Made by a program: the position numbers and the translations under genes
Notes under the pieces: generated by a model
The model's database searches: none
What the model saw: only the letters and a program-made list of their open reading frames with translations
What the model was told of the DNA's origin: nothing
NCBI GenBank assembly: GCA_963770895.1
Contig: CAVYRF010000002.1
Location: 4,704,001 to 4,768,000, forward strand
DNA: 64,000 nt
Origin: an uncultured Acidobacteriota bacterium
GTDB lineage: Bacteria > Acidobacteriota > Thermoanaerobaculia > Multivoradales > UBA5704
Direction of reading: 5' to 3'
Shown here: positions 32,281-47,979 of the stretch, piece by piece
Layout: the number at the start of each line of letters is the position of its first letter
Position numbering within the stretch: position 1 is the first letter of the stretch

Positions 32281-33066
32281 GTGGTCGAGCATCGCGCCCA
32301 GCTGGGAGCGGTCGAGTGCATCGTCGAGGAGATGCTGGGTGACCAGGCTCTGCGCCGCTTCGCCGCCATGCGCGACGCGGTGCCGCTGCTGCTGCACGGC
32401 ATCGGTCTGTCTCTGGGCAGCAGCGAGGGGCTCGACCCGGTGCGCCTGCGGCAGGTCGAGCGCGCGGTCCAGGCGCTGCGCCCGCCCTGGTTCTCCGAGC
32501 ACATCGCCTGGACGCGGGCCGGCGGCGTCGACGTCGGCCACTTGACGCCCCTGCCCTTCACCCACGAAGCGGTCCAGACCGTCGCGCGCAACGTGGAGAC
32601 CCTGCAGCGCGCCCTTCCCGGCGTACCGTTGCTGCTGGAAAACATCGCCTACACCCTGCCCTTGCCGGGCTCGCAGATGACCGAACCCGAATTTGTCCGC
32701 GCCGTGGTCGAAGCCGCCGGCACCGGGCTGCTGCTCGACCTGGAGAACGTGCACGCCAACACCCTCAATCACGGCGGCGACGCGCTCGACGCCATCGCGG
32801 CGCTCCCCCTGGAGCGGGTGGTCGAAGTCCACCTGGCCGGTGGTCTCTGGCAGGAAGGGGAGTACGCCGACACCCACACCCGCCCGGTGCCCGAGGAGTC
32901 CTGGGCGCTGCTCGAATGGCTGGTGCCGCGAGCCCCCAACCTGGCGGCAGTGATCATCGAGCGCGACGACGATCTGCCGCCCTTCGCCGACCTGCTCGCC
33001 GAGGTGCGGCGAGCGCAGGGCATTCTCGATGCAGCTCGCCGACCTGCAACGCCAGCTGGCCGCTAG
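32281..33066 (+). CDS. DUF692 / MNIO (MbnB/TglH-like) multinuclear non-heme iron enzyme; N-terminus possibly frameshifted
   Basis: LHGIGLSLGS, FSEHIAW, LLLENI, LLLDLENV, EVHLAGG, DTH and IERDD iron-ligand motifs. Confidence 0.85.
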   Translation: MVEHRAQLGAVECIVEEMLGDQALRRFAAMRDAVPLLLHGIGLSLGSSEGLDPVRLRQVERAVQALRPPWFSEHIAWTRAGGVDVGHLTPLPFTHEAVQTVARNVETLQRALPGVPLLLENIAYTLPLPGSQMTEPEFVRAVVEAAGTGLLLDLENVHANTLNHGGDALDAIAALPLERVVEVHLAGGLWQEGEYADTHTRPVPEESWALLEWLVPRAPNLAAVIIERDDDLPPFADLLAEVRRAQGILDAARRPATPAGR

Positions 33067-33547
33067 CCTCACCGGCCGCAGCGGCCGCAGCGCCCCGCCG
33101 GCCGGTTGCGCCGCCACCGCCATCGCACGCGCCCGCCGCGCCCTCGCCGCCAAGCGCCGCCGCGCCGTCCGCCACCTGTTGCCGCGCACCGCGGCAGCCC
33201 TGGCGGGCCGCTGGGAGGCCTGCTGGGGTCCCCACTGCGACCGCTACACGCCCAGCGGCATGCTCTATCACGTGGACGATGCGTGGGAGCTCGCGGCGCA
33301 CCTGGCAGCAAGCCGGCCGCGAGCGCGAGAGCGCGGCGCCGTCGCCATCTCCCCAGAGGTCCGCAGCGCCGCCCACGACGACCTGGTGAGCCTGCGGCTC
33401 CGCTACAGCCGCAGGCGCAGGGTTGGAGGCCTGCGCATCCGCGAACGCCGCGGTGTTGTCGTCGCCTGGATCTCAACCCCGCGCCACACCCTGGTGATAC
33501 GGCTGCCCGGCCGCCGGGGGCTGCTGTGGCAATGGCGAGTGGGGTAG
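33029..33547 (+). CDS. Putative DUF692 partner protein
   Basis: Overlaps DUF692; LADLQRQLAASL...ALAAKRRRAV...LLP resembles MNIO-associated partner domains. Confidence 0.55.
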   Translation: MQLADLQRQLAASLTGRSGRSAPPAGCAATAIARARRALAAKRRRAVRHLLPRTAAALAGRWEACWGPHCDRYTPSGMLYHVDDAWELAAHLAASRPRARERGAVAISPEVRSAAHDDLVSLRLRYSRRRRVGGLRIRERRGVVVAWISTPRHTLVIRLPGRRGLLWQWRVG

Positions 33548-33627
33548 TAGGCGCGGGCAAGGTTCTGGCCGGGAATCAAGAGGCAGTTGGGTGGGGAGTA
33601 AGGAGGAGGAGCAACCTGGCGCGGATT

Positions 33628-33801
33628 TGTTCGCAGGGCAGGATATTGCCCGAGCGCACACCGCGGGCTCAGGGATTGGCGAGTGCGCAGTCGAGTGGGC
33701 AATGTGTTCAGGTGGGGCAGAGGAGCTGGAGTTGGCGAGGTTGGCCGGATTGAGAAGCGCACGGGGGCCGCGGTGCGCGCGAGGCAAAGTTACCGAAGGA
33801 G
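33628..33801 (+). repeat. Double-hairpin repeat, copy R1
   Basis: TGTTCGCAGGG...GAGCGCACACCGCGGGCTCAGGGATTGGCGAGTGCGC...GAAGCGCACGGGGGCCGCGGTGCGCGCGAGGCAAA...CGAAGGAG. Confidence 0.9.
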
Positions 33802-33876
33802 ATTGGGCGGGCAGACCCAAAGGAGCGAGGTGCCGGCCGACGCGGTTCCGCGCTGAGCCTGCGCTGCGAGTATTCT

Positions 33877-34116
33877 ATGTTCGATGATGCCAAGCCCAAG
33901 GCGCCCCTGGATTGCTGGCGGCTATGGAGAGAACGGCAACAACGTGCCGGTAGCGATCTCGATTCTTACCGCGCCAAGCTGGCAATCGAAACTCACCTGT
34001 CGCGGATCGCCCAGCATCGCCCTCTAGACTCGATTGTCGAGCCAGAATTGCGAGCTGCGGCTGCAGGCCTCCGCAAGTGGTTTTCCCAAGAGTTCTTTGA
34101 TGGCCTCATGGATTGA
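33877..34116 (+). pseudogene. Short ORF, probably the 3' remnant of a larger gene
   Basis: No RBS, lies just after R1 and overlaps the next ORF as in a two-gene module. Confidence 0.35.
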
Positions 34117-34405
34117 TGGTTCCCTCTGCCCGGACGTTGTTGTGCCTGCGTCTATCGACTCGCTGGCGGATCGGGTGGATTTCATCGTCCGCCTCTGCGG
34201 CGCCTGGGACTTCGGTGTGCTCCCAGGCCGCGCGACCCTCTCCGAAATCTGCCGGCCCGACTGGAGGGCGGCCATCGACGCGGCGCGCCTTCTCACCTCT
34301 CCCAGCTATCACCTGGTTCGCCGCTGGCACGGACTGGAACCTCAAACCTATTGTGGCCAGCAGCTTGCCTACATCCGCGACGATCCCAGCTTGAATTTCG
34401 TCTGA
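34100..34405 (+). CDS. Hypothetical protein
   Basis: MASWIDGSLCPD...AWDFG...DDPSLNFV; protein-like composition, coupled to the upstream ORF. Confidence 0.5.
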   Translation: MASWIDGSLCPDVVVPASIDSLADRVDFIVRLCGAWDFGVLPGRATLSEICRPDWRAAIDAARLLTSPSYHLVRRWHGLEPQTYCGQQLAYIRDDPSLNFV

Positions 34406-34597
34406 CATGACCTTGCCATCCTGGCGCCTTGAGCGCCAGTGGGCGCCTGAAAAAATCTGCTCGGCGACGAGATCACGTAGGGCTCGCGGGCGCGCGCGTG
34501 GACTGCGCTAGCGTTTCGGGGGCCTTTGCCGCCTTGCCGCTCTTCCTCGCGGTAGGTCCTTGCCCTTCGACTCTCAATCCACTAGCTTGGATCATTG

Positions 34598-34626
34598 TTG
34601 ACAAGAAAAGTTGTCAAGGGTACCAT
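34598..34626 (+). promoter_or_regulatory. Promoter TTGACA-N17-TACCAT with inverted-repeat operator TTGACAA-N6-TTGTCAA
   Basis: Near-consensus boxes; the -10 ends 6 nt before the GTG at 34633, suggesting a leaderless mRNA. Confidence 0.7.
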
Positions 34627-34632
34627 CGCCTT

Positions 34633-35235
34633 GTGCTCGACATCCAGGTCATCGATGATCCGGGCGTGGCGATGGTGGCCATGGAGCCGATGCGGAGTCG
34701 ACTGCTTTCCGAGCTGGCTGCGCCCGCCTCGGCGGCGACGTTGGCCGCGCGGGTTGGCTTGGCTCGGCAAAAAGTCAACTACCACCTGCACGCCCTGGAG
34801 GCGCAGGGGCTGGTGCGGCTGGCCCAGGAACGCAAGTGGGGCGGGCTGACGGAGCGGCTGCTCGTGGCGACGGCCGCGTCCTACGTCATTTCGCCGAGCG
34901 CCCTGGGTCCGGTCGCAGCGGATCCGAATCGGGAAATCGACAGGCTGTCCGCCAGCTATCTCATCGCCTTGGGCGCACGGGTCGTTCGCGAGGTGGGCGA
35001 TCTCGTTCGTCGTGCGCAAGACGCGGGCAAGCGCCTGGCGACCCTGGCGGTGGATACCGAGGTTCGCTTCCGGTCTGCGACGGACCGGGCGGCTTTCAGC
35101 AACGAACTCGCCGAGGCCATCACGAAATTGGTTGCGAAGTACCACGATGAAACCACCCCCGGCGGCCGCGCGCATCGCCTGGTGGTCGTGGCGCACCCCC
35201 TGCCGCAGAGAGCTGACCCCAAGGAGCCATCATGA
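34633..35235 (+). CDS. ArsR-like HTH transcriptional regulator
   Basis: EPMRSRLLSEL..PASAATLAARVGLARQKVNYHL wHTH. Confidence 0.85.
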   Translation: MLDIQVIDDPGVAMVAMEPMRSRLLSELAAPASAATLAARVGLARQKVNYHLHALEAQGLVRLAQERKWGGLTERLLVATAASYVISPSALGPVAADPNREIDRLSASYLIALGARVVREVGDLVRRAQDAGKRLATLAVDTEVRFRSATDRAAFSNELAEAITKLVAKYHDETTPGGRAHRLVVVAHPLPQRADPKEPS

Positions 35236-36056
35236 GCGTGAAGAAAGAAGCTTCCGGACGCCGTTCCGTCCAGGTCGAAGTCGAGGTCCCCGGCACGCCG
35301 GAGGAAGTCTGGCAGGCCATCGCCACCGGGCCGGGTATTTCGTCCTGGTTCGTGCCGACTGAGTTCGAGGAGCTCGACGGCAAGCCCGTAGCGGTGAAGT
35401 TGAGCTTCGGTCCGGGCATGGAGTCCCGTTCTGCCGTGACGGCCTGGGATCCGCCGCGGATGTTTGCCGCCGAGGCCGATGGCTGGGCTCCTGGCTCGCC
35501 GCCCATCGCGGACGAGTGGAGCGTCGAAGCGCGCGGGGGAGGCATCTGCGTCGTCCGCGTGGTGCATAGCCTCTTCGCCAGCACGGACGACTGGGACAAC
35601 CAGCTGGAAGGCACCGAATCCGGCTGGCCTGGCTTCTTCCGCATCCTGCGGATCTATCTCACGCACTTCCGCGGCCAACGCTCCGCGATGATGCAGTGGA
35701 TCGCCCCCGCCACGGGAACCGAAGCCGAGGCATGGGAAACGCTGACCGCGGCATTGGGGCTGAACGGCGTGAGCGCTGGGCAGAGTTGGGCCGCCCCGGC
35801 GAGCGTCCCTGCGCTCGGCGGCGTGGTGGAACACGTCAGCCAGAGTCCGTGCAATGCCCTGCTGCGGCTCGACAAGCCGGGGCCGGGCGCCGCCGCCCTT
35901 GGCGCTGTCAACTACGGCGGCGCAATCATGGTCACGCTGAGCTTCTACCTCTACGGCGATCAGGCGGCCGGGACCGCCGCCCGCGAGACACCGGTGTGGC
36001 AAGCGTGGATTCAAGAACGCTTTCCGGTGCCGTCGGAGACGAACAACAGTGAATGA
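35232..36056 (+). CDS. SRPBCC/AHSA1 domain protein
   Basis: EVPGTPEEVWQAIATGPGISSWF, TAWDPP and GW..F motifs; ATGA coupling. Confidence 0.85.
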   Translation: MSVKKEASGRRSVQVEVEVPGTPEEVWQAIATGPGISSWFVPTEFEELDGKPVAVKLSFGPGMESRSAVTAWDPPRMFAAEADGWAPGSPPIADEWSVEARGGGICVVRVVHSLFASTDDWDNQLEGTESGWPGFFRILRIYLTHFRGQRSAMMQWIAPATGTEAEAWETLTAALGLNGVSAGQSWAAPASVPALGGVVEHVSQSPCNALLRLDKPGPGAAALGAVNYGGAIMVTLSFYLYGDQAAGTAARETPVWQAWIQERFPVPSETNNSE

Positions 36057-36391
36057 TCGCGTGGTCATGGGAGCACACTCCCGTCGTTGCGCGTGATTGT
36101 CGAGCAACGCAAACGGTCGATCCCCGGCCAGTTGAGGGCCGGATGCCGTGGCGATGTCCGCAAGCGTGTGGCCCGCGTCGAGCGCCATCGATGTAAGACG
36201 CTCAGCCCGCCTCGGCACTATCGATTTCTCTGATACAGGCCACTTTATAGCTGCGTCATGCGGTGGTGTCCTGGACAGGACACCACCGCGCGGCACTGTG
36301 CCGCGTCGCGCCACGCCACGCCTTGACTTAAAATTGCAAGGCGGTATATACGTCGTTGCTGCAAACTGGCTGTGCTGCGAGGCCGAAACCT

Positions 36392-37789
36392 ATGTACCCT
36401 ATCTTTGCGACCGCTTGGGCCTTGGCCGTCCTTTTTCACCTGGCGACGCCGCACGGGGCCGAAAGGAACGCGGTCTCCGCGCTGCTGCTGGTCGCGGCGC
36501 TGGTCACGATCCTTTTCCCGGGCAACAGCTTGGCGCTGGTGACGCTGGCAGTGTGCCAGATCGCGCAGTTCTGGGAACGGCTCCCCATGCGAGCTCAGAC
36601 CAGCGAGTACTTCAAGTTCATTTGCGGTCTCTGCCTCATCGCCACGTACGTTCCCCAGGCATCGGCGCAGGGGACGGCGTCGATTGCGACCGACCTTTGG
36701 TTCGCGTCCTTCGCGCCGTTGTTGAGGCTGGCGACGAGCCTGCTGTTTTTTGCCTCGGTCCTGCACAAGCTCAATGCCGGTTTCTTCAGCTCCGAGCGCA
36801 GCCACGCCGGGAAGATCGTCGGGCCTCTCATATCCGCTCTCGGATTGCCAAGCCCCAGATGGTTGCGCGCGATGCTGCCCTACGCGACCGTGCTTGGCGA
36901 ATTCTTCATCGCGGCGGGCCTGCTCTTTCCGGCGACACGGGCAGCGGCCGTATGGACGTTGCTGCTGATGTTCTTTGCCGTCGGCCTGCGTGGGGTCGTC
37001 CAGTTTGCCTGGCTGATGTATGCCGTGGGGCTCCTGTTCTGCGACGATCGGGTGGCCGCTCGCGCCATGCCTTATGTGGCGACAACCTTCTCGGTTCGTC
37101 ACGTGCTCTTTGCGCTTGCCTGCTGCTTCTTTTTTCCCGCGGCCATCCTGCTGCGGCGGCGCGCGACCGCATTGCTGCTCCTGGTCAGTACCGTCGTGAT
37201 GGCTCTTGCCTTGTTTGCCTGGTCGGCGGCGGCCGTCACCGGTGCTCCCGCTCCCATGATATGGACAGGAGCAAGCTTGCCGCTGTCCACGGCTCAAATC
37301 GCCCTGCTGGTGCTCTTTTCGCTCAACGAGCTGGGGCCTTATGTTGGCTACAAGGACTGGCCGACCTTTCGCATGTACAGCAATCTCGAAAGCGGATTTA
37401 CCATCAATCACCTATTCCTGAGGGCTTGGCTTTTTACGCCATTTTTCAAGCGGCGGCAGGAGGTCCTGCTGTCGCCGTCCACCGTGAAGCGCATCCCCTA
37501 CCAGCGCTTCAGAGCCGGCGGCGACCTTTATCTGCCGTATAGCTCCCTGGCGGTGCTGGTCCGAGAGTTTGGCAAGGCGGGAGGGCCCCCCATGCCCATC
37601 CAATCTCCCGACCCGGGCAGCAGCGCCGCGACGGCCGCGGCGACCGCGGCGATTTCGACGACCGCGGCGCCCGGGGAGAATGCCGAGCGGACAGCAAGCT
37701 CGTGGTTGGATCTGCTCATGCCGCCGCGCTTCTTCTTCCACTATCCGTGCTCGCGGCCGCCACAAGCTCCGGAGCTCAAATCGCCCTAG
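36392..37789 (+). CDS. Polytopic membrane protein (HTTM-like)
   Basis: Many TM segments; FASVLHKLN and PYVG...FRMYSNL. Confidence 0.6.
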   Translation: MYPIFATAWALAVLFHLATPHGAERNAVSALLLVAALVTILFPGNSLALVTLAVCQIAQFWERLPMRAQTSEYFKFICGLCLIATYVPQASAQGTASIATDLWFASFAPLLRLATSLLFFASVLHKLNAGFFSSERSHAGKIVGPLISALGLPSPRWLRAMLPYATVLGEFFIAAGLLFPATRAAAVWTLLLMFFAVGLRGVVQFAWLMYAVGLLFCDDRVAARAMPYVATTFSVRHVLFALACCFFFPAAILLRRRATALLLLVSTVVMALALFAWSAAAVTGAPAPMIWTGASLPLSTAQIALLVLFSLNELGPYVGYKDWPTFRMYSNLESGFTINHLFLRAWLFTPFFKRRQEVLLSPSTVKRIPYQRFRAGGDLYLPYSSLAVLVREFGKAGGPPMPIQSPDPGSSAATAAATAAISTTAAPGENAERTASSWLDLLMPPRFFFHYPCSRPPQAPELKSP

Positions 37790-37904
37790 CCAGGGCGTCC
37801 TCTCGATATCGGCTCGGTCGTCACCTGCGCCGGCGCGGTTCCCTTCGGTAGCGCCTGGGGTGGGGGTAGCTGCCCCCGGCCAGGCCCGTCAGGTAGGGGC
37901 GAGC

Positions 37905-38076
37905 ATTTCGAAGGGCTGGCGGTTGCCCGAGCGCGCACCGCGGGCTCAGGGTGTGGCGAGTGCGCGGTCGCGTGGGCAAGGATTAAGGTAAGGCAGGGAG
38001 AGGGAGTGGGCGTTTTCGGTCGGGGTGAGAAGCGCACGGGGGCCGCGGTGCGCGCGAGGCAAAGAAATCGAAGGAG
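37905..38076 (+). repeat. Double-hairpin repeat, copy R2
   Basis: Same left and right arms as R1 with a divergent centre. Confidence 0.9.
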
Positions 38077-38100
38077 ATACTCGTATGCTGGAGGTTCCCT

Positions 38101-38319
38101 ATGAAGAACATCACCTTGAGCGCCGACGAAGACCTGATCGAAGCCGCACGCGCCCGTGCGCGGGCCGAGCACACCACGCTGAATGAGCAGTTCCGCCGCT
38201 GGCTGGGCGAATACACCCAGCGCCAGAAGCAAGCGGACGCAGCCTTGGCAGTGATCGACGAGTTGCGCGGCAAGCTGCGCACCGGGGGGCGCCGCTTCAC
38301 TCGTGGGGAAGATGAATGA
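38101..38319 (+). CDS. Antitoxin (RHH/VapB-like)
   Basis: MKNITLSADEDLIEAAR...TLNEQFRRWL...RRFTR; RBS GGAGG; coupled to a PIN gene. Confidence 0.75.
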   Translation: MKNITLSADEDLIEAARARARAEHTTLNEQFRRWLGEYTQRQKQADAALAVIDELRGKLRTGGRRFTRGEDE

Positions 38320-38408
38320 ACGCTGATTTTCTCGACACCAACATCTTCGTCTATCTGTTGGACGAGACCGACGAACGCCGCCGCGAGATCGCGCGGCGCC
38401 TGGTCCAC
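38316..38408 (+). pseudogene. Truncated PIN-domain (VapC) toxin
   Basis: FLDTNIFVYL...RRREIARRLV, then homology stops at a 45-bp repeat. Confidence 0.7.
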
Positions 38409-38453
38409 GCGGCCGCGCAGCGGGCCGGGAAGGCGACGGTCGGACAGGTGGCG
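38409..38453 (+). repeat. 45-bp direct repeat B, copy 1
   Basis: GCGGCCGCGCAGCGGGCCGGGAAGGCGACGGTCGGACAGGTGGCG; 43/45 identical to 41792-41836. Confidence 0.8.
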
Positions 38454-38969
38454 TCAGGGTTTAAGGCTGTAGGCCGCGGCCATCGCGCCGGCGCCAGCCT
38501 GGTACTTGCGGGCGCGGGCCAGTTCGGCGATCTGGCGGATGTGGCCGAGGTCGTGGAGCGCCCATTCATTCAACATCTGCGACATGGTGATCTCGCCATA
38601 CTCCTTATGCACGGCGAGGCGATCGCCGGCACCGGCGGGGAGGTTGCGGAGGAAGTCGATGTTGTGCTCGCGCTGCTCCTCGAAGTGATCGATGGCATCC
38701 TCGGGGTCGGCATCGCGATAGAGGTCGAGGTACATCTGAGCGTCGTCGGGCTCGAACTGGGGACGGGTTTCCGCCATGAAACGATCGAGGCGCATGCGGT
38801 AGCAGTCGCCTTCGGAGTGCGACAGGTGGGCCAGCACCTCGGCGACGGAGAAGCGTTCGGGCGCCGGCTTCCAGCGGGCGTCCGCATCGGTCAGCTCCGT
38901 CATCAGGGCGCGGAGAATTCGAGGCGTGGCCTCCAGCAGGTCCAGGCAGGGCAGTCCGTTTTCCGTCAT
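38454..38969 (-). CDS. DinB family protein
   Basis: WKPAPERFSVAEVLAHL and WALHDLGHIRQI. Confidence 0.85.
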   Translation of the reverse strand: MTENGLPCLDLLEATPRILRALMTELTDADARWKPAPERFSVAEVLAHLSHSEGDCYRMRLDRFMAETRPQFEPDDAQMYLDLYRDADPEDAIDHFEEQREHNIDFLRNLPAGAGDRLAVHKEYGEITMSQMLNEWALHDLGHIRQIAELARARKYQAGAGAMAAAYSLKP

Positions 38970-39083
38970 GGGTTTATCCTACGACGTTGTCGCCGCCATC
39001 GACATGGCGGGTGTTGCCTGCCGGAGAGGCGATGAGTAGCCTGGGCGAGCCGGACCGCAACGGGGCCGGCTCGCCGATTGTGG

Positions 39084-39332
39084 CTAACAGACCGGCGAAG
39101 AGTGGTGCAGGACGTAGGCCGATTGGGTGCCGTAGCACTCGCAGTCGCCGCAGTCGTTCTGGCACGAGCCCACGACGGTGGTGTAGGTGTCGTCCGAGTA
39201 GTACACCCAGGTGTCCAGCTCGGTGTCGCGCGGATTGCAGTAGAAGGTCGCATGCGCCAGGGGCGGGGCTGTCGCCAGAGCTGCCAGGGTCAGTACGGCG
39301 ATCAGGCAGACAAAACGTCTTGCGGTCGTCAT
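39084..39332 (-). CDS. Small secreted Cys-rich protein (DUF6289-like)
   Basis: Signal peptide, then YYSDDTYTTVVG and six Cys; RBS AAGGA. Confidence 0.65.
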   Translation of the reverse strand: MTTARRFVCLIAVLTLAALATAPPLAHATFYCNPRDTELDTWVYYSDDTYTTVVGSCQNDCGDCECYGTQSAYVLHHSSPVC

Positions 39333-39925
39333 GGCCATTCCTTTCGGGGTTGAAGCCGGATGTCGCACCTTGCGGCCGGCGGTCAGTAGCAGATCTGGGC
39401 TGGGTTGCCCCAGCCGATGGACTTTCCAATCTCACCTTAGTTTAGTGCCTGCCATACATCAGCAGCAACACGCGGGAGAGCCCGGCGCTTCGCGGTGCGC
39501 CGCGAGGGTTTTCTTGAAAATCCGCGGATCGCCGCGCCGGTCTTTGCCGCGCCGGAGGTTCCCGCGACTCAGCAAGCTCGCCGCCACCGGCGGGCAAGGG
39601 TCCGCCGCGCCTGCCGGCGGTGCGGAGGTCTGTCCGATGGCACGCCTTCCGAGCTTCCAGCCCGCGCCGCAACCTGCGCAGGTGGTTTGTGCGGACCCCG
39701 CAGCGATGCGGCGTACGCCGGCCAGGCTGAGTTCTTCGTCTGTGGCTCGGGACTGCGCTGCCTGGCGCAAGGCACGTGCAGGGCCACCTCCAGGACGCGG
39801 TGCAGGTGCCTCATCATCCAGGCCCCGCACCGGGTGTGCCCCGCGCTGGCGCTGGCGTAAGGGGTCGCTTGGGGCGTGTCCGGGGCCGTGGCAGGTGACA
39901 GCGCCGAGCGGGCCGGCGGGGTGTC

Positions 39926-40097
39926 TGTTCGCAGGGCTGGCTGTTGAGCGAGCGCGCACCGCGGGCTCAGGGTTTGGCGAGTGCGCGGTTGCGTGGGCAA
40001 GGGTGCTGGTGGGGCAGGCGGACGGCTCTGGCGCGATGGGCCGGGGGGAGGAGCGCACGGGGGCCGTGGTGCGCGCGAGGCACAAGAATCGAAGGCG
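39926..40097 (+). repeat. Double-hairpin repeat, copy R3
   Basis: Conserved arms; near-identical to R4 over 39911-40122. Confidence 0.9.
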
Positions 40098-40130
40098 AGC
40101 GGGCGGGCGAGACGACGCGGGCGACGGCTT

Positions 40131-41585
40131 TTACGCGTACTCGAAAAGCGCCATGAAACCGAAGTCCATGTGCAGCTGCTGGTGGCAGTGGAAGAGGGTG
40201 CGGCCGGGATTGTCGGCGACGAAGTCGAAGGAGAGCTCCTGGAACCCACCCAGCATCACGACATCTTTGATGACGCCGGCGGTCGCCTTGCCGCCGATGT
40301 TGGTCAGCTCGAAGCTGTGCCGGTGTAGGTGCAGCGGGTGGATGTCGTCGCTTGCGTTGCGGACATTCACCCGGTAGCGGCGTCCCTGATGGATCGTGTA
40401 CGTGGGTTGCAAGGGGTCCATCGAGAAGGGTTTGCCATTGAGCGTCCAGACATTGAAGCCGTGTGCGGCGGCGTTGTGTTTGACGATCGTGATGTCGATC
40501 GTCTCGTCGGGCGTTGCCGTGGATGGACCGAGCTTGCCAAAGCGGGTATAGGCCCAATGGAAAGGCTTGGGTTTGATCCAGTGCGGCTTGCCGCCGCGGC
40601 CAGCGTATTCGACGACGGTCCCCATGCCATGACGGCGGTCGTCGTCGGCGAGATCGCCCATGACCCAGACGCCCGGGTGATTCATCTCGACGATCGCGGA
40701 GATGCGCTCGGCCGTGCCCAGCCATAGCACCGGCACCTCGGCTGGTGTCGGCACCGGGTTGCCGTCGAGCGCCACCACGCGGAAGACGTGCCCGGGCAAC
40801 GCGAGGCTGCGAATCTCCGTCGCGCTCGCGTTGAGCACGTGGAACAGCACCCGCTCTCCTTGCTTGACGCGGATCGGCTGGCCATGCCCGAGCATGACTC
40901 CATTGATGCTGAACAGCTCGTAGCCGACCTCGAATCCCTTGGGCGTAGCCTTGGAAGCCGCGTCGGCGGCGTTTCCGATCTGCTTGAGCTCGGCGAGCGG
41001 ATTGCCGGCAAGGCAATCCATCGCCATGTCGCCGCCGCGGCTGAAGGCCGGCGCGAACTCCTTCATCACCAGGAAGATCTCCCGATCGTAGGCGCCGGGA
41101 TCGCTGGCGGGCTCGATGTAGACCGGACCGGCCTGGCCGGTGTAGGTGCCGCGGTTGAGGTCGCTCCCGGCGATGACGTGCGTGTGATAAAAGCGGAAGC
41201 CCGCCGGCTTCGGCACCCAGGCAATCCGCCGCCGGCCGTGCGCGGGAACGAAGGGCGAACCTTCCTCGGCTGCGCCGTCGACGTCGGTCGGGATCTTCTG
41301 GCCGTGCCAATGGACCAACTCCGGCGTGTCCGTGTCGTTGAGGATGTCGACCACCACCCGCCGGCCTTCGTGCAAACGGAGGAGCGGTCCCGGGAACTGG
41401 CCGTTGTAGAGCGTCGTGGACACGATATGGTCCGGCGCGACCTCGACCAGCCCGGTAGCGATGCGCAACGTGTAGTCGGCCTGCTCATCGGTGGCTGCGT
41501 CGACAGCTCGTGCAAAGCGCGGCAAGGCGCCAAGGAGCGGCACCAGCCCGGCAAGCTTGAGCAGCGAACGGCGATCGATCGTCAT
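40131..41585 (-). CDS. Tat-exported multicopper oxidase
   Basis: DRRSLLK Tat motif; HWHG, YHTH, HPLHLHRH and HCHQQLHM copper sites. Confidence 0.92.
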   Translation of the reverse strand: MTIDRRSLLKLAGLVPLLGALPRFARAVDAATDEQADYTLRIATGLVEVAPDHIVSTTLYNGQFPGPLLRLHEGRRVVVDILNDTDTPELVHWHGQKIPTDVDGAAEEGSPFVPAHGRRRIAWVPKPAGFRFYHTHVIAGSDLNRGTYTGQAGPVYIEPASDPGAYDREIFLVMKEFAPAFSRGGDMAMDCLAGNPLAELKQIGNAADAASKATPKGFEVGYELFSINGVMLGHGQPIRVKQGERVLFHVLNASATEIRSLALPGHVFRVVALDGNPVPTPAEVPVLWLGTAERISAIVEMNHPGVWVMGDLADDDRRHGMGTVVEYAGRGGKPHWIKPKPFHWAYTRFGKLGPSTATPDETIDITIVKHNAAAHGFNVWTLNGKPFSMDPLQPTYTIHQGRRYRVNVRNASDDIHPLHLHRHSFELTNIGGKATAGVIKDVVMLGGFQELSFDFVADNPGRTLFHCHQQLHMDFGFMALFEYA

Positions 41586-41791
41586 GGTCGATTTCCTCAC
41601 CGAGGTGTGGCGCCTGGGGAACCCTGGACGCCTGCTGAGCCCTCCGTATGCACCCGCGTGACCGGAGGAGGCGGGGCGGTTCTACAATGCTGTGGATCGC
41701 CTGCGGCGCCGAGGGTGGTAGCGACCCCGCCGCCGCTTCCTTTGAGCACCAACGTGGCAATGATACCGCTCCCATGAGCAGTGGCTCGCCA

Positions 41792-41836
41792 GCGGCCGGG
41801 CAGCGGGCCGGGAAGGCGACGCTCGGACAGGTGGCG
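41792..41836 (+). repeat. 45-bp direct repeat B, copy 2
   Basis: 43/45 identical to 38409-38453. Confidence 0.8.
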
Positions 41837-42148
41837 GGGACCGCCGGCGGCGTGCCGCGTGCCGTCTGGTTGGAGCCGGGTGCACACTGCACATCCGCTG
41901 ATCCGGCGCTGCGCCGGAGATGGTTGGAGTGTAGTGTGCGGAGCCGAGAGGGCTTGCCTTCCCGGCCCCGGTTGTGGGTGCCAGGGATCGTTGCCGAGTG
42001 AGGATCTACTACAATACCGCTAGCGCGTCCGCCTGCGGAGGCGAAGAAGGAGACGTGCCTGGTTGCGGCACCTCCGATGTCCAAGCTGACCGCCTGCGGC
42101 GGCGGCTTGGCTTGAGCGCGATGGGCCACCGCCAAGAGGTCGGGCGAC

Positions 42149-42658
42149 ATGTCTGGGATAAAACATCATCGATGGAGCTTTGCGTTCCGCCGGCCTCGAG
42201 CTGCGAGTTGGTGCTGGCGCTGCTGCTTGGCGCTGGCGCTGCTTGAGGCGGGTTGTGTCGTCCATTGGCATCCGCCGCCCCAGGGGGCAGGCGGCGCTTG
42301 GGACCCGGCTGCTCACCCCGAGCTGCCCGCAGTTGAGGTGGTGGCGAGCGGGCAGGTGGTGCGGTCTTACAGGACGATCGGTACCGTGCATGCCCTCGGA
42401 TCGATGGGGGAGCAGGAGGCCTTGATCGTGCTGAGGCAGGAGGCGCAGGCGCTGCGCGGCGACGCCCTGCTCAACGTCCACAGGCGTGGCTTGACCGCCA
42501 CGACCCTCGACGCGTCCACCAGTCTGGCCGAGCAACTGTGGGAGGCTACCGTGATCGTGTGGACGGATCCTCCCGCAGAAGCCGTGGCGCCGGAAGCGCC
42601 GAGTGCGCCGCCGATTCCGCATCGTGGCGAGTGGCGACTTGGAGCCGGGCGGCTGTAG
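42149..42658 (+). CDS. Hypothetical exported protein or lipoprotein
   Basis: LALALLEAGC lipobox-like segment; RSYRTIGTV...LRQEAQALRGDALL resembles YbjQ-like folds; start uncertain. Confidence 0.45.
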   Translation: MSGIKHHRWSFAFRRPRAASWCWRCCLALALLEAGCVVHWHPPPQGAGGAWDPAAHPELPAVEVVASGQVVRSYRTIGTVHALGSMGEQEALIVLRQEAQALRGDALLNVHRRGLTATTLDASTSLAEQLWEATVIVWTDPPAEAVAPEAPSAPPIPHRGEWRLGAGRL

Positions 42659-42714
42659 AACGCGGGACATCCGCGCCGGCTGCCGGCGCTGCGGGCGCTG
42701 GCCAGCGACCCGTT

Positions 42715-42927
42715 ATGACAATCGGACTCGACGATCGCTATCGTGACGAAAACGGACGGATCCATGCAAAGCGTGGCGATACACTTGTACGGACACTCCG
42801 CGGAATATACGGCTCGAGCTTTGCCGCGGGATTTCCTGCCGATACGACGCTGGACCGATTGCTCGATGGAACCGGTTTCTCATCGCTGAGCCAATATGTG
42901 AAGCATCACGGGCATTCCCAAGGGTAG
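42715..42927 (+). CDS. Small conserved hypothetical protein
   Basis: GLDDRYRDENGRIHAKRGDTLVRTLR..YG..FA.G; protein-like composition. Confidence 0.55.
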   Translation: MTIGLDDRYRDENGRIHAKRGDTLVRTLRGIYGSSFAAGFPADTTLDRLLDGTGFSSLSQYVKHHGHSQG

Positions 42928-42959
42928 CGGCAAGCCCGCGCGCCGCCGCTGCGGCCGGG

Positions 42960-43313
42960 CGGCATCGATCGAGTGCCAGCGCGGTGACCCGCACGGCGGC
43001 TTGCCAGAGCGGCCGGATGAAGGGCTCGCAGCGCGCTTCATGGCGACTGTCGGCGCTTGCCACACCGACGACGTCCCGTCCCAAGCGCGCGGCTTCGTCG
43101 AGAAAGCCGCCCGAGTAACACTGATCGGCGATCAGGATCAATCGCGCGAAGGGGAGCGGCGCCAGAAGGAGGAGGAAGGCGCCAGCCGTGATCAGACCAC
43201 TTTCCAGATTGAGAAAGGGGGGCCGAAGGCGCGCCCGCCATGGCCGGTGAGATAGACGAGCAGCAGGTCTTGTGGCCGTATCTCGCGGCGCAATAGCTCC
43301 ACGGCTTGGTCGA
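42960..43313 (-). pseudogene. Caspase/legumain-like (clan CD) peptidase remnant
   Basis: LLVYLTGHG (His) and LIADQCYSGGF (Cys) lie in different frames, joined by a frameshift in a C-run near 43220; the 5' part is replaced by repeat R4. Confidence 0.65.
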
Positions 43314-43328
43314 GGCCGGCGGGGTGTC

Positions 43329-43500
43329 TGTTCGCAGGGCTGGCTGTTGGGCGAGGGCGCACCGCGGGCTCAGGGTTTGGCGAGTGCGCGGTTGCGTGGG
43401 CAAGGGTGCTGGTGGGGCAGGCGGACGGCTCTGGCGCGATGGGCCGGGGGGAGAAGCGCACGGGGGCCGTGGTGCGCGCGAGGCATAAGAATCGAAGGCG
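43329..43500 (+). repeat. Double-hairpin repeat, copy R4
   Basis: Near-identical to R3 over 43314-43525. Confidence 0.9.
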
Positions 43501-43627
43501 AGTGGGCGGGCGCGCCGACGCGGGCTTGGCCTTTGTGCCACCTGGCGCGGCCGCGGTGTTTCGTCATGGATTGCGACCGCGTTGGCACAGTATTGGTTGC
43601 GGGGCGAACACCCAAGGAGAACACGCC

Positions 43628-43783
43628 ATGAAAAAGCAGATCCGCCACCTGTTGCTCCATCGCGAGACCCTGCAGAACCTGAACGCTGCGAACCTGCCCA
43701 GGGCGGTCGCCGGCGCCGCGACCTCGCCGCCGGTGTGCGAGAACAGCGGCAACGCCATCACCCACTGCACGGGCTGCTGCTAG
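43628..43783 (+). CDS. RiPP-like precursor peptide P1 (51 aa)
   Basis: RBS AAGGAG; MKKQIRHLLLHRETLQNL leader; Ser/Thr/Cys core ending CTGCC. Confidence 0.7.
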   Translation: MKKQIRHLLLHRETLQNLNAANLPRAVAGAATSPPVCENSGNAITHCTGCC

Positions 43784-43977
43784 GTAGCCGCCAGCGATCG
43801 CACCGGGCCGGCTGCGGCCGGCCCCGCCTCGGGCGCTTCAGGTGCGCCGCTGCCGGCGGCAGCGCACCTCGGCGAGGTCTGGGGCACCCGCATCCGGGCC
43901 ACCTATCCGCAGTCGCAGCCCGGGACGTCCGGGAGCCGGGAGCGGCGGCGCCGGGGCCGCAAGCCCGGCGCGGTTTG

Positions 43978-44150
43978 TGTTTGCAGGGCTGGCTGCTACC
44001 CGAGCGCGCACCGCAGGCTCAGGGTTTGGCGAGTGCGCGGTGGAGTCGGCAATATTTCTGGTGGGGCGGATGGATGGAGTTGGGAGCTATCGGCCGGAGT
44101 GCGAAGCGCACGGGGGCCGCGGTGCGCGCGAGGCAAGAGATTCGAAGGAG
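43978..44150 (+). repeat. Double-hairpin repeat, copy R5
   Basis: Conserved arms, ends CGAAGGAG. Confidence 0.9.
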
Positions 44151-44313
44151 CTAGGGGGGCTGGATCTGGCAGGGTCGTTCCCCCGTTCCCCCGTTCCCCG
44201 AAAGGAAGGCAGCGCCGGCAGGCGTTCTCATTCGCCCCTCCGCTGTCTCGCATCCGAGAGGCGTGGGCACCCGACTTGATGGGACGCTACTCGAATCCGG
44301 AAAGGAAAAGCCC

Positions 44314-44460
44314 ATGAGAAAGACCCTGAAGCCCATCCGCTTGCAGCGCGAGACCCTGAAGCATCTGACCGATGGCACGCTCGACAAGGTGCGCGCCGCC
44401 TGGCGCGAGAACACCAACTACATCAGCTGCCCGAATCCGCAGACCTGCCTCGGCTGCTGA
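44314..44460 (+). CDS. RiPP-like precursor peptide P2 (48 aa)
   Basis: RBS AAAGGA; MRKTLKPIRLQRETLKHL leader; core ending SCPNPQTCLGC. Confidence 0.7.
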   Translation: MRKTLKPIRLQRETLKHLTDGTLDKVRAAWRENTNYISCPNPQTCLGC

Positions 44461-44930
44461 GCCCCCTGCCTGCACAAGAAGGCCGATCGCCGGCCCGGCC
44501 GGCCCGCTGAGCGATTGCGGGCAGGCCGCGCAGTCGACGATTTCGGGAGCCAGGAGATCGCCGGCAATCGCCAAGTCCATTTGGCCCTGCTTGCCCAGGA
44601 AGCGTGCGCAAGTGGAGGTAGGCTTCGACGGCCGCCGCGGCCGGTGCAGCGCCACCATGTGACGGAAATGGTCGGGACCGCCGGCGTAGGCCGTGAGTGA
44701 ACATCTGCTGCCTTGATTGCGGTGCGTTCGGCGTTACTGGCGGAATGGCTGAGGGCGGGGGGGCGGGGGCAGTGGTGGGATGTGATGTCGCTGCTGGGAG
44801 GCGGTGCAGGAGGGGATGGGGGGGGAGGTGGCGGCGCTGGCGGCTGCTGGCGTCCGACCAGGGCAACCATGTATAACCTGTACAGGCCGTCGTGGCCTGG
44901 ACCGAGCTGGTAAAGTTGTACGAGCCGCAC

Positions 44931-46136
44931 ATGCAACCAACCACCAGAGCCGACGTGGCACCGCAACTCCTTCGCTGGGCGCGCGAGACCGCCGGTCTCT
45001 CCGCCGAGGAAGCTGCGCGCCAGCTCGGGGTCAAGCCAGACCGCCTGGGCGAATGGGAAGCAGGGCAGCTCAGTCCGACTGTGCCTCAGTTGCGCAAGGC
45101 TGCGGCCATGTACAAGCGGTCTCTGGCGACGTTCTTCCTGGCCGAACCGCCGGCGACGGCGGCGCCCCCCCACGACTTCCGGCGACTTCCCCCGGAGGGA
45201 CGCGGCGAGGCTGCGCTGTCTCCGGCCTTGCTTCTCGCCATTCGCCGAGCGAACCGCCGCCGCCGCATCGCGGTCGAGCTGGCGCGCGAGAACGGCGCTT
45301 CGCCTCAGCCGTTTTCGGTTCGCGGGGAGCCGAGCGACGACGAGGAGCTGGGCGCTCGCCTGCGGTCGTTCCTCGGCGTGGCGCTCGACGACCAGATGAA
45401 GTGGAGAGGAGACTACCAGCCGCTCAACGCCTGGGTCGCGGCACTCGAATCAAGGGACGTCCTGGTGTTTCAGGCAAGCCACATCTCGGTAGGGGAGATG
45501 CGCGGCTTCTCGATCAGCGAGCGCACCTTCCCAGTGATTGTCCTCAATTCCAAGGACTCGCCCCGCGGGCGGGTATTCACCCTGATGCACGAGCTGGTCC
45601 ACCTGGCCCTGAGCGAAGGCGGTGTCTGCGATCCGCTGGAAGCCCGCCGTGGCGCCCACAGCCGGGACGACGAGGTCGAGGTCTTTTGCAGTCGCATCGC
45701 CGGCGCGGTCCTGGTTCCGGCCGAGGCGCTGCTGGCGCCGCCACTGGTGCGCGCCGCCGCGCAGCCGCAGGAATGGGACGACTCGGAGCTGCATCGGCTG
45801 GCGCAGTTTTTCGGGGTCAGCGACGAGGTGATTCTGCGGCGCCTGCTCATCCTGCGGAAGACCACCGAGGCGTTTTATGAGGCCAGGCGCCGCGCCTACC
45901 AGAGAGCCTACACGGCGATGAGGATCGCAGACGCGGCCAAGCCGATACGGATTCCACCGTCCGTGATCGTGGTGCGCAACAATGGGCGCCTTTACACTCG
46001 GTTAGTTCTGGCAGCGCTCGACAGCGACAGGATCACCTTTGCCGACGTTGCCGACTATCTGGGCACAAACCTCAAGCACCTGGACGCGATTGCCGATCTG
46101 GTCGGAGCCGCGCGTCCCGCCGAGGCCATGGTGTGA
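44931..46136 (+). CDS. XRE-family HTH fused to an ImmA/IrrE metallopeptidase
   Basis: LRWARETAGLS..EAA..LG..WEAG HTH; FTLMHELVH (HExxH); FGVS. Confidence 0.9.
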   Translation: MQPTTRADVAPQLLRWARETAGLSAEEAARQLGVKPDRLGEWEAGQLSPTVPQLRKAAAMYKRSLATFFLAEPPATAAPPHDFRRLPPEGRGEAALSPALLLAIRRANRRRRIAVELARENGASPQPFSVRGEPSDDEELGARLRSFLGVALDDQMKWRGDYQPLNAWVAALESRDVLVFQASHISVGEMRGFSISERTFPVIVLNSKDSPRGRVFTLMHELVHLALSEGGVCDPLEARRGAHSRDDEVEVFCSRIAGAVLVPAEALLAPPLVRAAAQPQEWDDSELHRLAQFFGVSDEVILRRLLILRKTTEAFYEARRRAYQRAYTAMRIADAAKPIRIPPSVIVVRNNGRLYTRLVLAALDSDRITFADVADYLGTNLKHLDAIADLVGAARPAEAMV

Positions 46137-46201
46137 CAGTTTATGTGGTGGATAGCAGCGCCGAAGGCTGTGCTCCATCGCTGAGAGGCGGAGGACCGTC
46201 G

Positions 46202-47407: not shown

Positions 47408-47479
47408 AGAGCACCGAGTTTTCTACGTTGGTCAGGGGCAAGAGCTCGTTTAGTCTTTGCTTGCGGGGTTTGGATTGCA

Positions 47480-47755: not shown

Positions 47756-47784
47756 ACCCAATTAATTGTATTACCCTTAAAGAG

Positions 47785-47856: not shown

Positions 47857-47979
47857 TTGAGACTGCGGCCCGGGCAGGGGCGCGTCGGTCGGTCGGAGAT
47901 AAGGCTAACACAGGCGGTGCGGCGGAGCGAAGCTGGCGGCTGAGGTTGTCCTGCGGCCGATCGGTGTGTGGCTTTGCCG

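What the first reader, a model, noticed from the sequence alone, without database searches (positions are those of the whole stretch)
33628..44150. Array of five co-oriented ~172-174 bp double-hairpin repeats separating unrelated cargo: candidate non-canonical cassette or recombination system
Seen in sequence: copies at 33628-33801, 37905-38076, 39926-40097, 43329-43500 and 43978-44150, all on the same strand. They sit within ~10.5 kb and I saw none in the rest of the window. Length is conserved and the arms are conserved, while the purine-rich centre is divergent. The left arm is GAGCGCGCACCGCGGGCTCAGGGTTTGGCGAGTGCGC and the right arm is GAAGCGCACGGGGGCCGCGGTGCGCGCGAGGCA...CGAAGG. Each arm folds on its own (GCGCAC...GTGCGC, the left with a bulged A). 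The arms also pair with each other through a 13-bp inverted repeat, GCGCGCACCGCGG/CCGCGGTGCGCGC. Cargo between copies is heterogeneous: regulator+SRPBCC+membrane gene; TA+DinB+Cys peptide; MCO+small genes; a single peptide gene. Established: integron attC sites and REP/REPIN or IS200/605 ends are ssDNA hairpins processed by tyrosine recombinases or HUH enzymes. These repeats lack the attC RYYYAAC/GTTRRRY ends. Inference: an integron-like or REPIN-like gene-capture array serviced in trans, since no recombinase lies in the window. A structured ncRNA is an alternative.
Basis: partly seen in the sequence, partly recalled or inferred. Interest (0 to 1): 0.88.

Follow-up and report, generated by a model that had tools for sequence, protein, structure and literature searches.

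The report
Genus-specific structured repeat, not an integron
The five repeats are real copies of a folded, roughly 200-base element found only in one genus of soil Acidobacteria; it looks like a conserved structured RNA or DNA module living in variable DNA, not a gene-capture system.

Summary
Five co-oriented copies lie at the stated places. They belong to a family with 18 strong copies, 3 divergent full-length copies and 4 fragments in this 8.16 Mb genome. The family matches no Rfam model. A covariance model found it in 6 of 10 genomes of the genus and in 0 of 82 genomes of ten sister genera.

The conserved part is a ~145-nt core. It has a long-range helix P1 (10-20 bp, at least 9 sequence versions, all complementary) and a 6-bp helix P2 with a U-A/G-C swap. 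It also has a near-invariant unpaired junction and a G-rich loop of constant length, 65-71 nt. Private mutations avoid the junction and P2 about tenfold, so individual copies are under selection.

No integron integrase, RAYT, TnpB or other recombinase is linked. Module junctions are ragged, and the cargo pieces occur without the repeat in relatives.

Best reading (0.45): a family of strand-specific structured non-coding RNA modules carried in flexible DNA. Main rival (0.3): a REP/BOX-like DNA repeat. The integron-like reading is about 0.08.

The parts
33612..33818 (+). Copy 1 (nhmmer extent); covariance-model core 33647-33790
   Evidence: sits at the left edge of the low-GC mosaic region
37894..38086 (+). 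Copy 2; core 37924-38065. The 3' tail is cut after CGAAGGAGAT and joined to an antitoxin-like gene (38101-38319) that lacks the upstream region seen in relatives
39913..40114 (+). Copy 3; core 39945-40086. 95-97% identical to copy 4 over about 211-221 nt. Its 3' side abuts the stop of the minus-strand multicopper oxidase gene (40131-41600)
43312..43516 (+). Copy 4; core 43348-43489. Followed by a Cys-rich peptide gene at 43628-43783
43961..44166 (+). Copy 5; core 43997-44139. Followed by a Cys-rich peptide gene at 44314-44460
44004..44016 (+). Copy 5, helix P1 5' arm (GCGCGCACCGCAG)
   Evidence: positions counted from the core string
44017..44032 (+). Copy 5, unpaired junction J12 (GCTCAGGGTTTGGCGA), near-invariant in the genus
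44033..44038 (+). Copy 5, helix P2 5' strand (GTGCGC)
44039..44105 (+). Copy 5, G-rich variable loop (67 nt here; 65-71 nt in the 35 sequences measured)
44106..44116 (+). Copy 5, helix P2 3' strand (GCGCAC) plus junction GGGGG
44117..44129 (+). Copy 5, helix P1 3' arm (CCGCGGTGCGCGC)

Best explanation
The repeats are members of a genus-restricted family of strand-specific structured elements.

Shown:
- Each copy has a ~145-nt core. A long-range helix P1 (10-20 bp; its distal sequence differs by lineage but stays complementary) closes the core.
- Inside it are a 16-nt near-invariant unpaired junction (GCUCAGGG-NNN-GGCGA), a 6-bp helix P2, and a G-rich, C-poor loop of fixed length (65-71 nt).
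- Each copy's junction and P2 are kept by purifying selection.
- Copies sit in flexible, horizontally exchanged DNA.
- The closest relative of a copy is usually its neighbour, which points to local direct duplication.

Inferred: the unit is transcribed on the + strand as a small non-coding RNA module. Each lineage carries its own 50-235-nt 5' extension, and similarity stops just after P1. The junction and P2, held on the P1 clamp, would be the binding surface for a trans-acting factor, most likely a protein. The loop would act as a spacer or single-stranded G-rich platform.

The array in the window is the product of local duplication plus repeated insertion and deletion of foreign DNA around the copies. 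It is not a cassette machine.
For: Structure:
- On 37 sequences from 6 genomes, 97.4% of cells in 19 pairs form standard pairs, against 84.1% in shuffles (0 of 500 reach it).
- 81 cells show changes on both sides, against 20.8 in shuffles (0 of 500).
- Sliding the partners by 1-3 columns drops pairing to 18-64%.
- Single pairs show AU:17 CG:11 GC:8, and UA:24 GC:13.
- At least 9 distinct P1 sequences of 10-20 bp are all complementary.

Constant geometry: the loop is 65-71 nt in the 35 of 37 sequences measured. Its composition is G 0.486, C 0.193.

Selection on each copy, among the 17 main copies of this genome:
- 1 singleton change in the 22 columns of J12 plus the P2 5' strand.
- 0.61 singletons per column in the loop, and 0.70-0.89 in the flanks.

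Directionality:
- The 5' extensions are conserved within a lineage: -235 nt in G002, about -130 nt in two G009 copies, and -50 to -100 nt here.
- Similarity ends 10-30 nt after P1.
- G-U cells number 13 and A-C cells 7 on the + strand.
- In copy 2 the element replaces the native upstream region of an antitoxin gene.

Independence from neighbours: flanking genes are co-oriented, convergent or divergent in comparable numbers.

No linked mobility or partner protein.

Distribution:
- 6 of 10 genomes of the genus and 0 of 82 in ten sister genera.
- A motif scan of 185,579 species genomes gave 19 stretches, 13 of them in records titled Thermoanaerobaculia. Of the 10 stretches put to the model (all 6 others and 4 of the 13), the 4 scored 34-90 bits and the 6 others 15.3 bits or less, which is chance level.
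- 4 more copies lie in metagenome contigs. None was found in viral contigs, phages or plasmids.
Against: - No transcription evidence: no listed sequencing run is RNA, so expression is untested.
- No promoter motif is conserved across lineages. A GG-N10-GC (sigma-54-like) spacing is seen by eye in some lineages only.
- In this genome the 28 nt before P1 change at a near-neutral rate, apart from AGGGCTGGC.
- There is no U-tract terminator on the + strand.
- In G002 the 5' extension reads on the minus strand as a hairpin followed by a T-run, which would fit minus-strand transcription instead.
- The G-U over A-C excess is small, and several cells are inherited together.
- 21 copies, two subfamilies per genome, patchy presence in the genus, truncated copies and island location are what a mobile DNA repeat would also show.
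- The alignment used for pair counts was fitted to a model that already held part of the structure, which favours it.
Confidence: 0.45

Rival explanations
1. This is a DNA-level interspersed repeat of the REP/BIME, BOX, ERIC or MITE kind. It would be a non-autonomous element that folds as single-stranded DNA or as a cruciform, and is spread by an unidentified enzyme or by recombination. The host may have co-opted it, for example as a transcript-end stabiliser, terminator or protein-binding site.
For: - Multi-copy, with lineage-specific bursts: each genome has its own P1 version, and this genome has two subfamilies of 17-18 and 3 copies.
- Patchy in the genus, 6 of 10 genomes.
- Intergenic and in low-GC, IS- and TA-rich DNA.
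- Truncated copies exist.
- Other repeat modules travel with it in G002.
- Orientation follows the local GC-skew sign at most loci. This was judged by eye, and it is a pattern that single-strand-dependent elements share.
Against: - No terminal inverted repeats at the ends, fuzzy ends, and no target-site duplication seen.
- No RAYT, TnpB or IS110 partner. The single Y1 gene belongs to an IS200 with different ends.
- No recurrent neighbouring protein.
- Singleton mutations avoid the junction and P2 about tenfold. Dead copies of a selfish repeat should not show this unless the host uses them.
- The nearest relative of a copy is usually its neighbour, which points to local duplication rather than transposition.
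Confidence: 0.3
2. This is a recombination site of a non-canonical gene-capture system. The folded repeat would be the attC-like site at which a trans-acting recombinase inserts and excises modules.
For: - Co-oriented arrays with unrelated cargo lie between copies.
- The hairpin has two paired boxes, an unpaired spacer and a variable centre, which recalls attC architecture.
- Sites are homogeneous within a genome and diverge between species, as in chromosomal integrons (the integron comparison is recalled, not tested).
- Two toxin-antitoxin modules and the oxidase block begin within about 0-20 nt of an element's 3' end.
- Copies 3 and 4, at 95-97% identity, bracket a 3.2-kb block.
Against: - No integron integrase in 10 genomes.
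- No tyrosine or serine recombinase within tens of kb of the clusters, apart from one serine recombinase 7.5 kb from a single copy.
- Cargo is multi-gene and on both strands.
- The same cargo pieces in relatives have no repeat beside them.
- Junctions cut both partners at different points.
- Truncation points differ between copies.
- The conserved helix base is GCGCGC rather than the R boxes.
- Five strong copies are solitary.
Confidence: 0.08
3. This is a cis-acting transcript element, a leader, riboswitch-like sensor or terminator/insulator, that works only on the gene beside it.
For: - An SD-like GAAGGAG tail follows the core in this genome.
- Some copies lie 25-150 nt upstream of co-oriented small genes: copies 2, 4 and 5, and C1:1001892.
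- About 12 of 20 copies lie downstream of a co-oriented gene (by eye).
Against: - The downstream gene is convergent for about 8-9 of 21 copies, and the upstream gene is divergent for about 8.
- Neighbouring genes are unrelated.
- The GAAGGAG tail is not followed by a start codon at a working distance in most copies, and it is absent in other lineages.
Confidence: 0.1

Closest known systems
Integron attC sites, including arrays without an integrase (CALINs)
   Same: - An imperfect hairpin read on one strand.
- Two paired segments separated by unpaired bases, with a variable centre.
- Co-oriented arrays.
- Sites alike within a genome and different between species.
The attC features are recalled; the element's own features come.
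   Different: - No R''/R' boxes.
- No IntI in 10 genomes.
- The core of ~145 nt with a fixed 65-71-nt G-rich loop is larger than typical attC.
- Cargo is multi-gene and on both strands.
- Junctions are imprecise.
- Many copies are solitary.
Interspersed structured intergenic repeats: REP/BIME and REPIN-RAYT, ERIC, BOX, RIME, Correia/MITEs
   Same: - Short, intergenic and multi-copy.
- Fold into stable hairpins.
- Lineage-specific families.
- Modular association with other repeats, as in G002.
   Different: - Only 1-21 copies per genome.
- No GTAG/CGTC tag and no RAYT (the tag was judged from the alignment).
- No terminal inverted repeats or target duplications seen.
- A strongly conserved unpaired junction, with selection on single copies.
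Multi-copy structured bacterial sRNA families such as Qrr1-5, RsmX1-5 and the 'cuckoo'/CcsR RNAs (recalled, not tested)
   Same: - Several to many paralogues per genome.
- Conserved hairpins with conserved unpaired motifs.
- Copies 'nested' in unrelated contexts, and tandem local duplicates.
   Different: - No CsrA in the genus, so it is not a Csr/Rsm sponge.
- No match to any Rfam family.
- Copy number is higher.
- Copies sit in island DNA.
- No demonstrated promoter or terminator.
Guide or scaffold RNAs of mobile elements: omega/reRNA of IscB/TnpB, and IS110 bridge RNA
   Same: A structured element of ~150-200 nt tied to mobile DNA, with standalone copies possible.
   Different: - No TnpB in the genome.
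- Only one weak IS110-like gene, far from all copies.
- No HEARO or other Rfam hit.

Membership tests
Integron attC / integron cassette array | Inverse core and core sites (RYYYAAC ... GTTRRRY) at the base of the hairpin | tested here: not met
   In all aligned copies the helix base is GCGCGC/GCGCGC. The upstream GTTCGCA does not fit GTTRRRY. This was read from the alignments; no attC model was run.
Integron attC / integron cassette array | An integron integrase (IntI) in the genome, normally next to the array | tested here: not met
   TIGR02249: 0 of 10 genomes over the 265-bit cut-off, best 103.6 bits. No PF00589 match inside the window, and none closer than about 34 kb to any copy or fragment (63 kb to the nearest full copy).
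Integron attC / integron cassette array | Cassettes of one (rarely two) promoterless, co-oriented ORFs, each ending in a site | tested here: not met
   Blocks of 0.48-4.1 kb with genes on both strands and their own regulator.
Integron attC / integron cassette array | The cassette and its site travel together between genomes | tested here: not met
   Five cargo pieces were found in G001, G003 or G005 at 79-94% identity. No element lies in the 2.4-4.5 kb fetched around them; the model scored 12.5 bits or less with filters off.
REP / REPIN-RAYT | A RAYT (Y1 HUH) gene flanked by the repeats, co-occurring with them | tested here: not met
   PF01797 occurs in 2 of 10 genomes, one copy each. In G000 it is an IS200-type tnpA with unrelated hairpins. 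None was found in four of the six element carriers: G002, G007, G008 and G009.
MITE | Terminal inverted repeats at the very ends, and target-site duplications | tested here: inconclusive
   The inverted repeat (P1) is internal, and similarity fades gradually at both ends. No empty site could be recovered in relatives, because the flanks are themselves variable.
Any Rfam RNA family | Score at or above the family's gathering threshold | tested here: not met
   Only a tRNA passes in the window. With E up to 10 on 33000-45000, none of the 7 weak matches lies on a repeat copy.
CsrB/RsmZ-type protein sponge RNA | A CsrA/RsmA protein in the genome, and GGA motifs in loops | tested here: not met
   GGA motifs are present, 1-6 per loop. 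PF02599 was found in 0 of 10 genomes, while the control genomes ring.
omega/reRNA (TnpB, IscB) or IS110 bridge RNA | The partner nuclease or recombinase is encoded in the genome, typically adjacent | tested here: not met
   PF07282: 0 matches. PF01548: one match at 33 bits, at C2:1637410, far from all copies.
Independent sRNA gene | A conserved promoter upstream, a terminator downstream, and a detectable transcript | tested here: inconclusive
   Lineage-specific 5' extensions carry palindromes and an A-tract. There is no cross-lineage promoter and no U-tract terminator. The transcript could not be tested with these tools.

The most novel reading that the evidence does not exclude
The element is a new kind of landing pad. 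In this reading it is a folded, strand-specific site, used as RNA or single-stranded DNA, next to which foreign modules are preferentially joined. Such modules would include toxin-antitoxin pairs, an oxidase block and peptide genes. The joining machinery would be unrelated to integron integrases, so the arrays would be the footprint of a non-integron gene-accretion process in Acidobacteriota.

The evidence that leaves this open:
- Three modules start within about 0-20 nt of an element's 3' end.
- Truncated copies abut foreign low-GC DNA.
- Near-identical copies bracket a 3.2-kb block.
- Two inverted copies bracket a 12-kb integrase-bearing island in a relative.
Probability: 0.1. Interest if true: 0.85.

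Novelty: new member of a known kind. Interest (0 to 1): 0.5.

Why it matters
If it is an RNA, this is an undescribed structured non-coding RNA class. It has unusually clear covariation, a conserved unpaired motif and up to 21 copies per genome. It occurs in an uncultured soil lineage (class Thermoanaerobaculia by the record titles), where almost nothing is known about RNA biology. The conserved junction would then point to an unknown binding partner.

If it is a DNA repeat, it adds a well-defined family for studying how structured repeats are kept under selection in flexible genome regions.

Either way, it removes a candidate 'new integron-like system' from the list. It also gives a covariance model and motif that find further members.

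Tried and rejected
- Rfam at gathering and at E up to 10: no family.
- Integron integrase, Y1/RAYT, tyrosine and serine recombinases, IS110 and TnpB: none linked.
- CsrA sponge idea, prompted by GGA motifs in the loop: no CsrA in 10 genomes.
- RiPP-leader idea, that the repeats are upstream regions of the RETL-type Cys peptides: only 3 of 25 nhmmer hits have such a peptide within 600 nt downstream.
- Recurrent neighbour protein: clustering of 355 ORFs around the copies gave none. The one 4-member cluster is a translation through the element itself.
- Autonomous parent element: the 5'-only fragments at C2:3864328 and C2:5344945 are truncations against foreign DNA, not ends of a larger element.
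- Empty-site and TSD test: flanks of four solitary copies were searched in relatives. Synteny is broken at or near every one, so no empty site was recovered.
- Sigma-54 promoter idea (GG-N10-GC before P1): judged by eye only, present in some lineages and absent in others. Not pursued with a scan.
- G-quadruplex idea: G-tracts in the loop are too widely spaced in this genome's copies. Judged by eye, no tool run.
- Expression: no RNA holder listed.
- Read laying on DNA runs, to look for excised or alternative junctions, was not possible. Population-level structural variation therefore remains untested.
- Plasmid, phage and viral collections: no match.
- Literature: two full-text searches. 'Thermoanaerobaculia' + 'repeat' + 'intergenic' gave 0 papers. 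'Acidobacteria' + 'miniature inverted-repeat transposable' + 'secondary structure' gave 4 papers, seen as a search listing with the start of each abstract; none is about this element. No paper was read.

Full report
**Observation**

The five repeats are real. The repeat finder groups them into one family with starts at 33612, 37889, 39910, 43313 and 43962, all on the + strand. Their alignment has 84% mean column identity.

A profile built from them finds 25 matches in the whole 8.16 Mb genome (3 contigs, 70.7% GC):
- 18 score above 100 bits. These include the five in the window, at E 3e-54 to 2e-52.
- 3 are divergent full-length copies at C1:624035, 631708 and 633216.
- 4 are fragments.

No other copy lies in the window. 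Two lie 20-25 kb before its start.

Similarity between unlinked copies runs from about -50 to +160 relative to the start of GAGCGCGC, and it fades rather than stopping sharply.

**Setting**

The array lies in a stretch of 62-70% GC, falling to 56-59% at 46-48 kb. The surrounding DNA is 72-78% GC. The stretch ends at a tRNA gene at 47785-47856 on the minus strand.

Pfam confirms heterogeneous cargo on both strands:
- an HTH_20 regulator
- an SRPBCC protein
- an antitoxin-like gene
- a DinB_2 gene (minus strand)
- a multicopper oxidase (minus strand)
- an HTH_3 + M78 protein
- a DUF4062 protein

Elsewhere in the genome the copies are also intergenic and lie among toxin-antitoxin genes, transposases and other variable DNA. 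Neighbouring genes are co-oriented, convergent or divergent in comparable numbers. The element is therefore not a leader or trailer of a particular gene class.

Copies cluster, and all copies within a cluster share one strand:
- window, 5 copies
- C2:4679-4684 kb, 2 copies
- C1:2027-2043 kb, 3 copies plus a fragment
- C1:1101-1108 kb, 2 copies
- C1:624-633 kb, 3 copies

The closest relative of a copy is usually its neighbour. Copies 3 and 4 are 96.7% identical from -40 to +171. The copies at 4679 and 4684 kb are 91% identical from -186 to +244. The copies at 2037 and 2043 kb are 90% identical from -102 to +186. Unlinked copies are 80-88% identical. Local direct duplication explains the co-orientation.

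**Distribution**

The family matches no Rfam model, at gathering scores or at E up to 10.

A covariance model (R1) found it in 6 of the 10 genomes of the genus:

| Genome | Matches |
|---|---|
| G000 | 21 |
| G002 | 8 |
| G005 | 3 |
| G009 | 3 |
| G008 | 2 |
| G007 | 1 |
| G001, G003, G004, G006 | 0 |

It found none in 82 genomes of ten sister genera of the same family. That search used Infernal's stricter filters, and several of those assemblies are fragmented.

A two-part motif scan of 185,579 species genomes returned 19 stretches, 13 of them in records titled Thermoanaerobaculia. I put 10 of the 19 to the model: 4 of the 13, and all 6 from other phyla. The four scored 34-90 bits. The six scored 15.3 bits or less and are chance matches.

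The same scan of metagenome contigs gave 15 stretches, 4 of which the model confirms. Viral contigs, phage records and plasmid records gave nothing.

**Structure**

Relatives carry diverged copies whose arms change together.

On the 37-sequence model alignment (A5) I specified a nested fold. P1 has 13 pairs (columns 8-19 and 24 with 149, 150 and 155-165). P2 has 6 pairs (columns 43-48 with 138-143). The counts are:

| Measure | Observed | Shuffled | Shuffles reaching it |
|---|---|---|---|
| Cells forming standard pairs | 97.4% | 84.1% | 0 of 500 |
| Cells changed on both sides | 81 | 20.8 | 0 of 500 |

Sliding the partners by 1-3 columns leaves 18-64% of cells paired.

Individual pairs show AU:17 CG:11 GC:8, AU:13 GC:12 GU:6 CG:3 and, in P2, UA:24 GC:13. 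The alignment was fitted to a model that already held part of this fold, which favours it. The P1 extension and the P2 swap are nevertheless visible in the plain MAFFT alignments.

At least nine different P1 sequences of 10-20 bp exist, and each is complementary to its own partner.

It is broken at four of its twelve pairs in 11-12 of the 37 sequences, and only 86.9% of its cells pair. It is a by-product of the GC-repeat arms.

Between P1 and P2 lies a 16-nt junction, GCUCAGGG-NNN-GGCGA, that hardly varies across the genus. After P2 comes CG-GGG.

The loop enclosed by P2 varies in sequence. Its length is 65-71 nt in the 35 sequences where it could be measured. Its composition is G 48.6%, C 19.3%. 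No convincing conserved fold of the loop came out of RNAalifold.

**Selection**

I counted changes private to one copy among the 17 main copies of this genome:

| Region | Singletons per column |
|---|---|
| 5' flank | 0.70 |
| P1 5' arm | 0.46 |
| Junction J12 | 0.06 |
| P2 5' strand | 0.00 |
| Loop | 0.61 |
| P1 3' arm | 0.21 |
| 3' tail | 0.89 |

Mutations that arose after the copies separated have thus been removed from the junction and P2, and partly from P1. This argues that individual copies are functional, or are homogenised by conversion in just these segments. It argues against dead copies of a selfish repeat.

**Strand and direction**

- The strong G over C excess of the loop is kept in all lineages.
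- On the + strand there are 13 G-U cells against 7 A-C cells in the helices. Several of these are inherited together, so this is weak.
- Each lineage has its own 5' extension, conserved within the lineage but not between lineages. It is about 235 nt in G002, with two palindromes and an A-tract. It is about 130 nt in two G009 copies and 50-100 nt here.
- On the 3' side, similarity ends 10-30 nt after P1.
- In copy 2 the element replaces the upstream region that the antitoxin gene has in two relatives.

These points fit a directional unit read on the + strand.

Against this:
- No promoter motif is shared across lineages.
- There is no U-tract terminator on the + strand.
- In G002 the extension reads on the minus strand as a hairpin followed by a T-run.
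- Expression could not be tested.

**Why it is not an integron-like system**

- No integron integrase passes the cut-off in any of the 10 genomes. The best score is 103.6 bits against 265.
- None of the 22 tyrosine-recombinase matches lies in the window or closer than about 34 kb to any copy or fragment; the nearest to a full copy is 63 kb away.
- Of the 8 serine-recombinase matches, one is 7.5 kb from a single copy and the rest are far away.
- The only Y1 transposase is an IS200-type tnpA with its own hairpins. None was found in four of the six carriers.
- There is no TnpB and only one weak IS110-like gene.
- No protein family recurs beside the copies.
- The pieces between the window's repeats match scattered places in G003, which has no copy of the element. 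The HTH+SRPBCC piece matches at 92%, the antitoxin at 90%, the oxidase at 79% and the peptide gene at 94%. Nothing resembling the element lies in the 2.4-4.5 kb fetched around the five pieces examined in G001, G003 and G005.
- The junctions are ragged. Copy 2 lost its tail and the antitoxin lost its upstream region. The toxin homology stops at 38409, before the DinB_2 gene. Truncated copies end at different positions.

**What stays open**

Three modules begin within about 0-20 nt of an element's 3' end. Truncated copies abut foreign DNA. In G002 two inverted copies bracket 12 kb of 50-66% GC DNA that carries a P4-type integrase and a DDE transposase.

The elements may therefore mark, or favour, sites of DNA accretion. 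I put this at about 0.1.

**Verdict**

The gene-capture interpretation is not supported.

My odds:
- 0.45 for a family of + strand structured non-coding RNA modules whose junction and P2 bind a trans factor
- 0.30 for a REP/BOX-like DNA repeat, possibly co-opted by the host
- 0.10 for a purely cis-acting transcript element
- 0.08 for a recombination site
- the remainder for something else

It is a new member of a known kind: structured multi-copy intergenic elements, or candidate ncRNAs. It is confined to one uncultured genus.

Noticed in passing
window 43628-43783 (+) and 44314-44460 (+); also G000 C1:1001314-1001484 (-): Three small Cys-rich peptide genes share a leader of the form ..L.RETL..L... 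The third lies next to an ORF whose N-terminus looks like a radical-SAM enzyme (C1:999962-1001080; judged by eye, no Pfam run). They may be RiPP precursors. The 44233-44490 stretch is 93-94% identical in G001 and G003.
   Followed up: partly
window 33600-47860: A low-GC mosaic region ends at a tRNA gene (47785-47856, minus strand). Its pieces match scattered loci of a congeneric genome at 79-94% identity. Some of these values are higher than the 76-85% seen for a neighbouring housekeeping gene, which suggests exchange of small modules within the genus.
   Followed up: partly
window 38082-38969: An antitoxin-like gene lies at 38101-38319. Homology to relatives' toxin-antitoxin pair stops at 38409, and a DinB_2 gene on the other strand follows at 38454-38969. 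The toxin gene therefore appears cut short.
   Followed up: partly
G000 C2:1633731-1637087 (L070): An IS200-type tnpA (C2:1635186-1635617) sits among a different repeat family. That family has 143-nt units in five copies within 3.3 kb, each with the palindrome CGTTTCACGTGAAACG, plus a 220-nt pair at 99% identity.
   Followed up: no
G002 loci L038, L042, L045, L047, L051 (-235 to -1 before the core): A lineage-specific 5' extension carries two palindromes (TGTAGTTTGAAACTACA and GCAATTCGC-GGA-GCGAATTGC) and an A-tract. On the minus strand the same stretch reads as a hairpin plus a T-run. It could be a regulated promoter region or a terminator of the opposite strand.
   Followed up: partly
L118 (G002:C97:161500-179500), elements at 3034-3180 (-) and 15133-15278 (+): Two inverted copies bracket about 12 kb of 50-66% GC DNA. 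It carries a P4-type integrase (Arm-DNA-bind_3, Phage_int_M, Phage_integrase) and a DDE transposase. There is no tRNA gene in the 18 kb.
   Followed up: partly
G000 C1:1496435, C2:764394, C2:3311949: Three serine-recombinase matches have identical scores and 759-aa open frames, which points to a repeated mobile element. One lies 7.5 kb from the solitary repeat copy at C2:756672.
   Followed up: no
window 44892-47407: An HTH_3 + Peptidase_M78 (ImmA/IrrE-like) gene and a DUF4062 gene lie in the lowest-GC part of the window (56-59%), between the last repeat and the tRNA.
   Followed up: no
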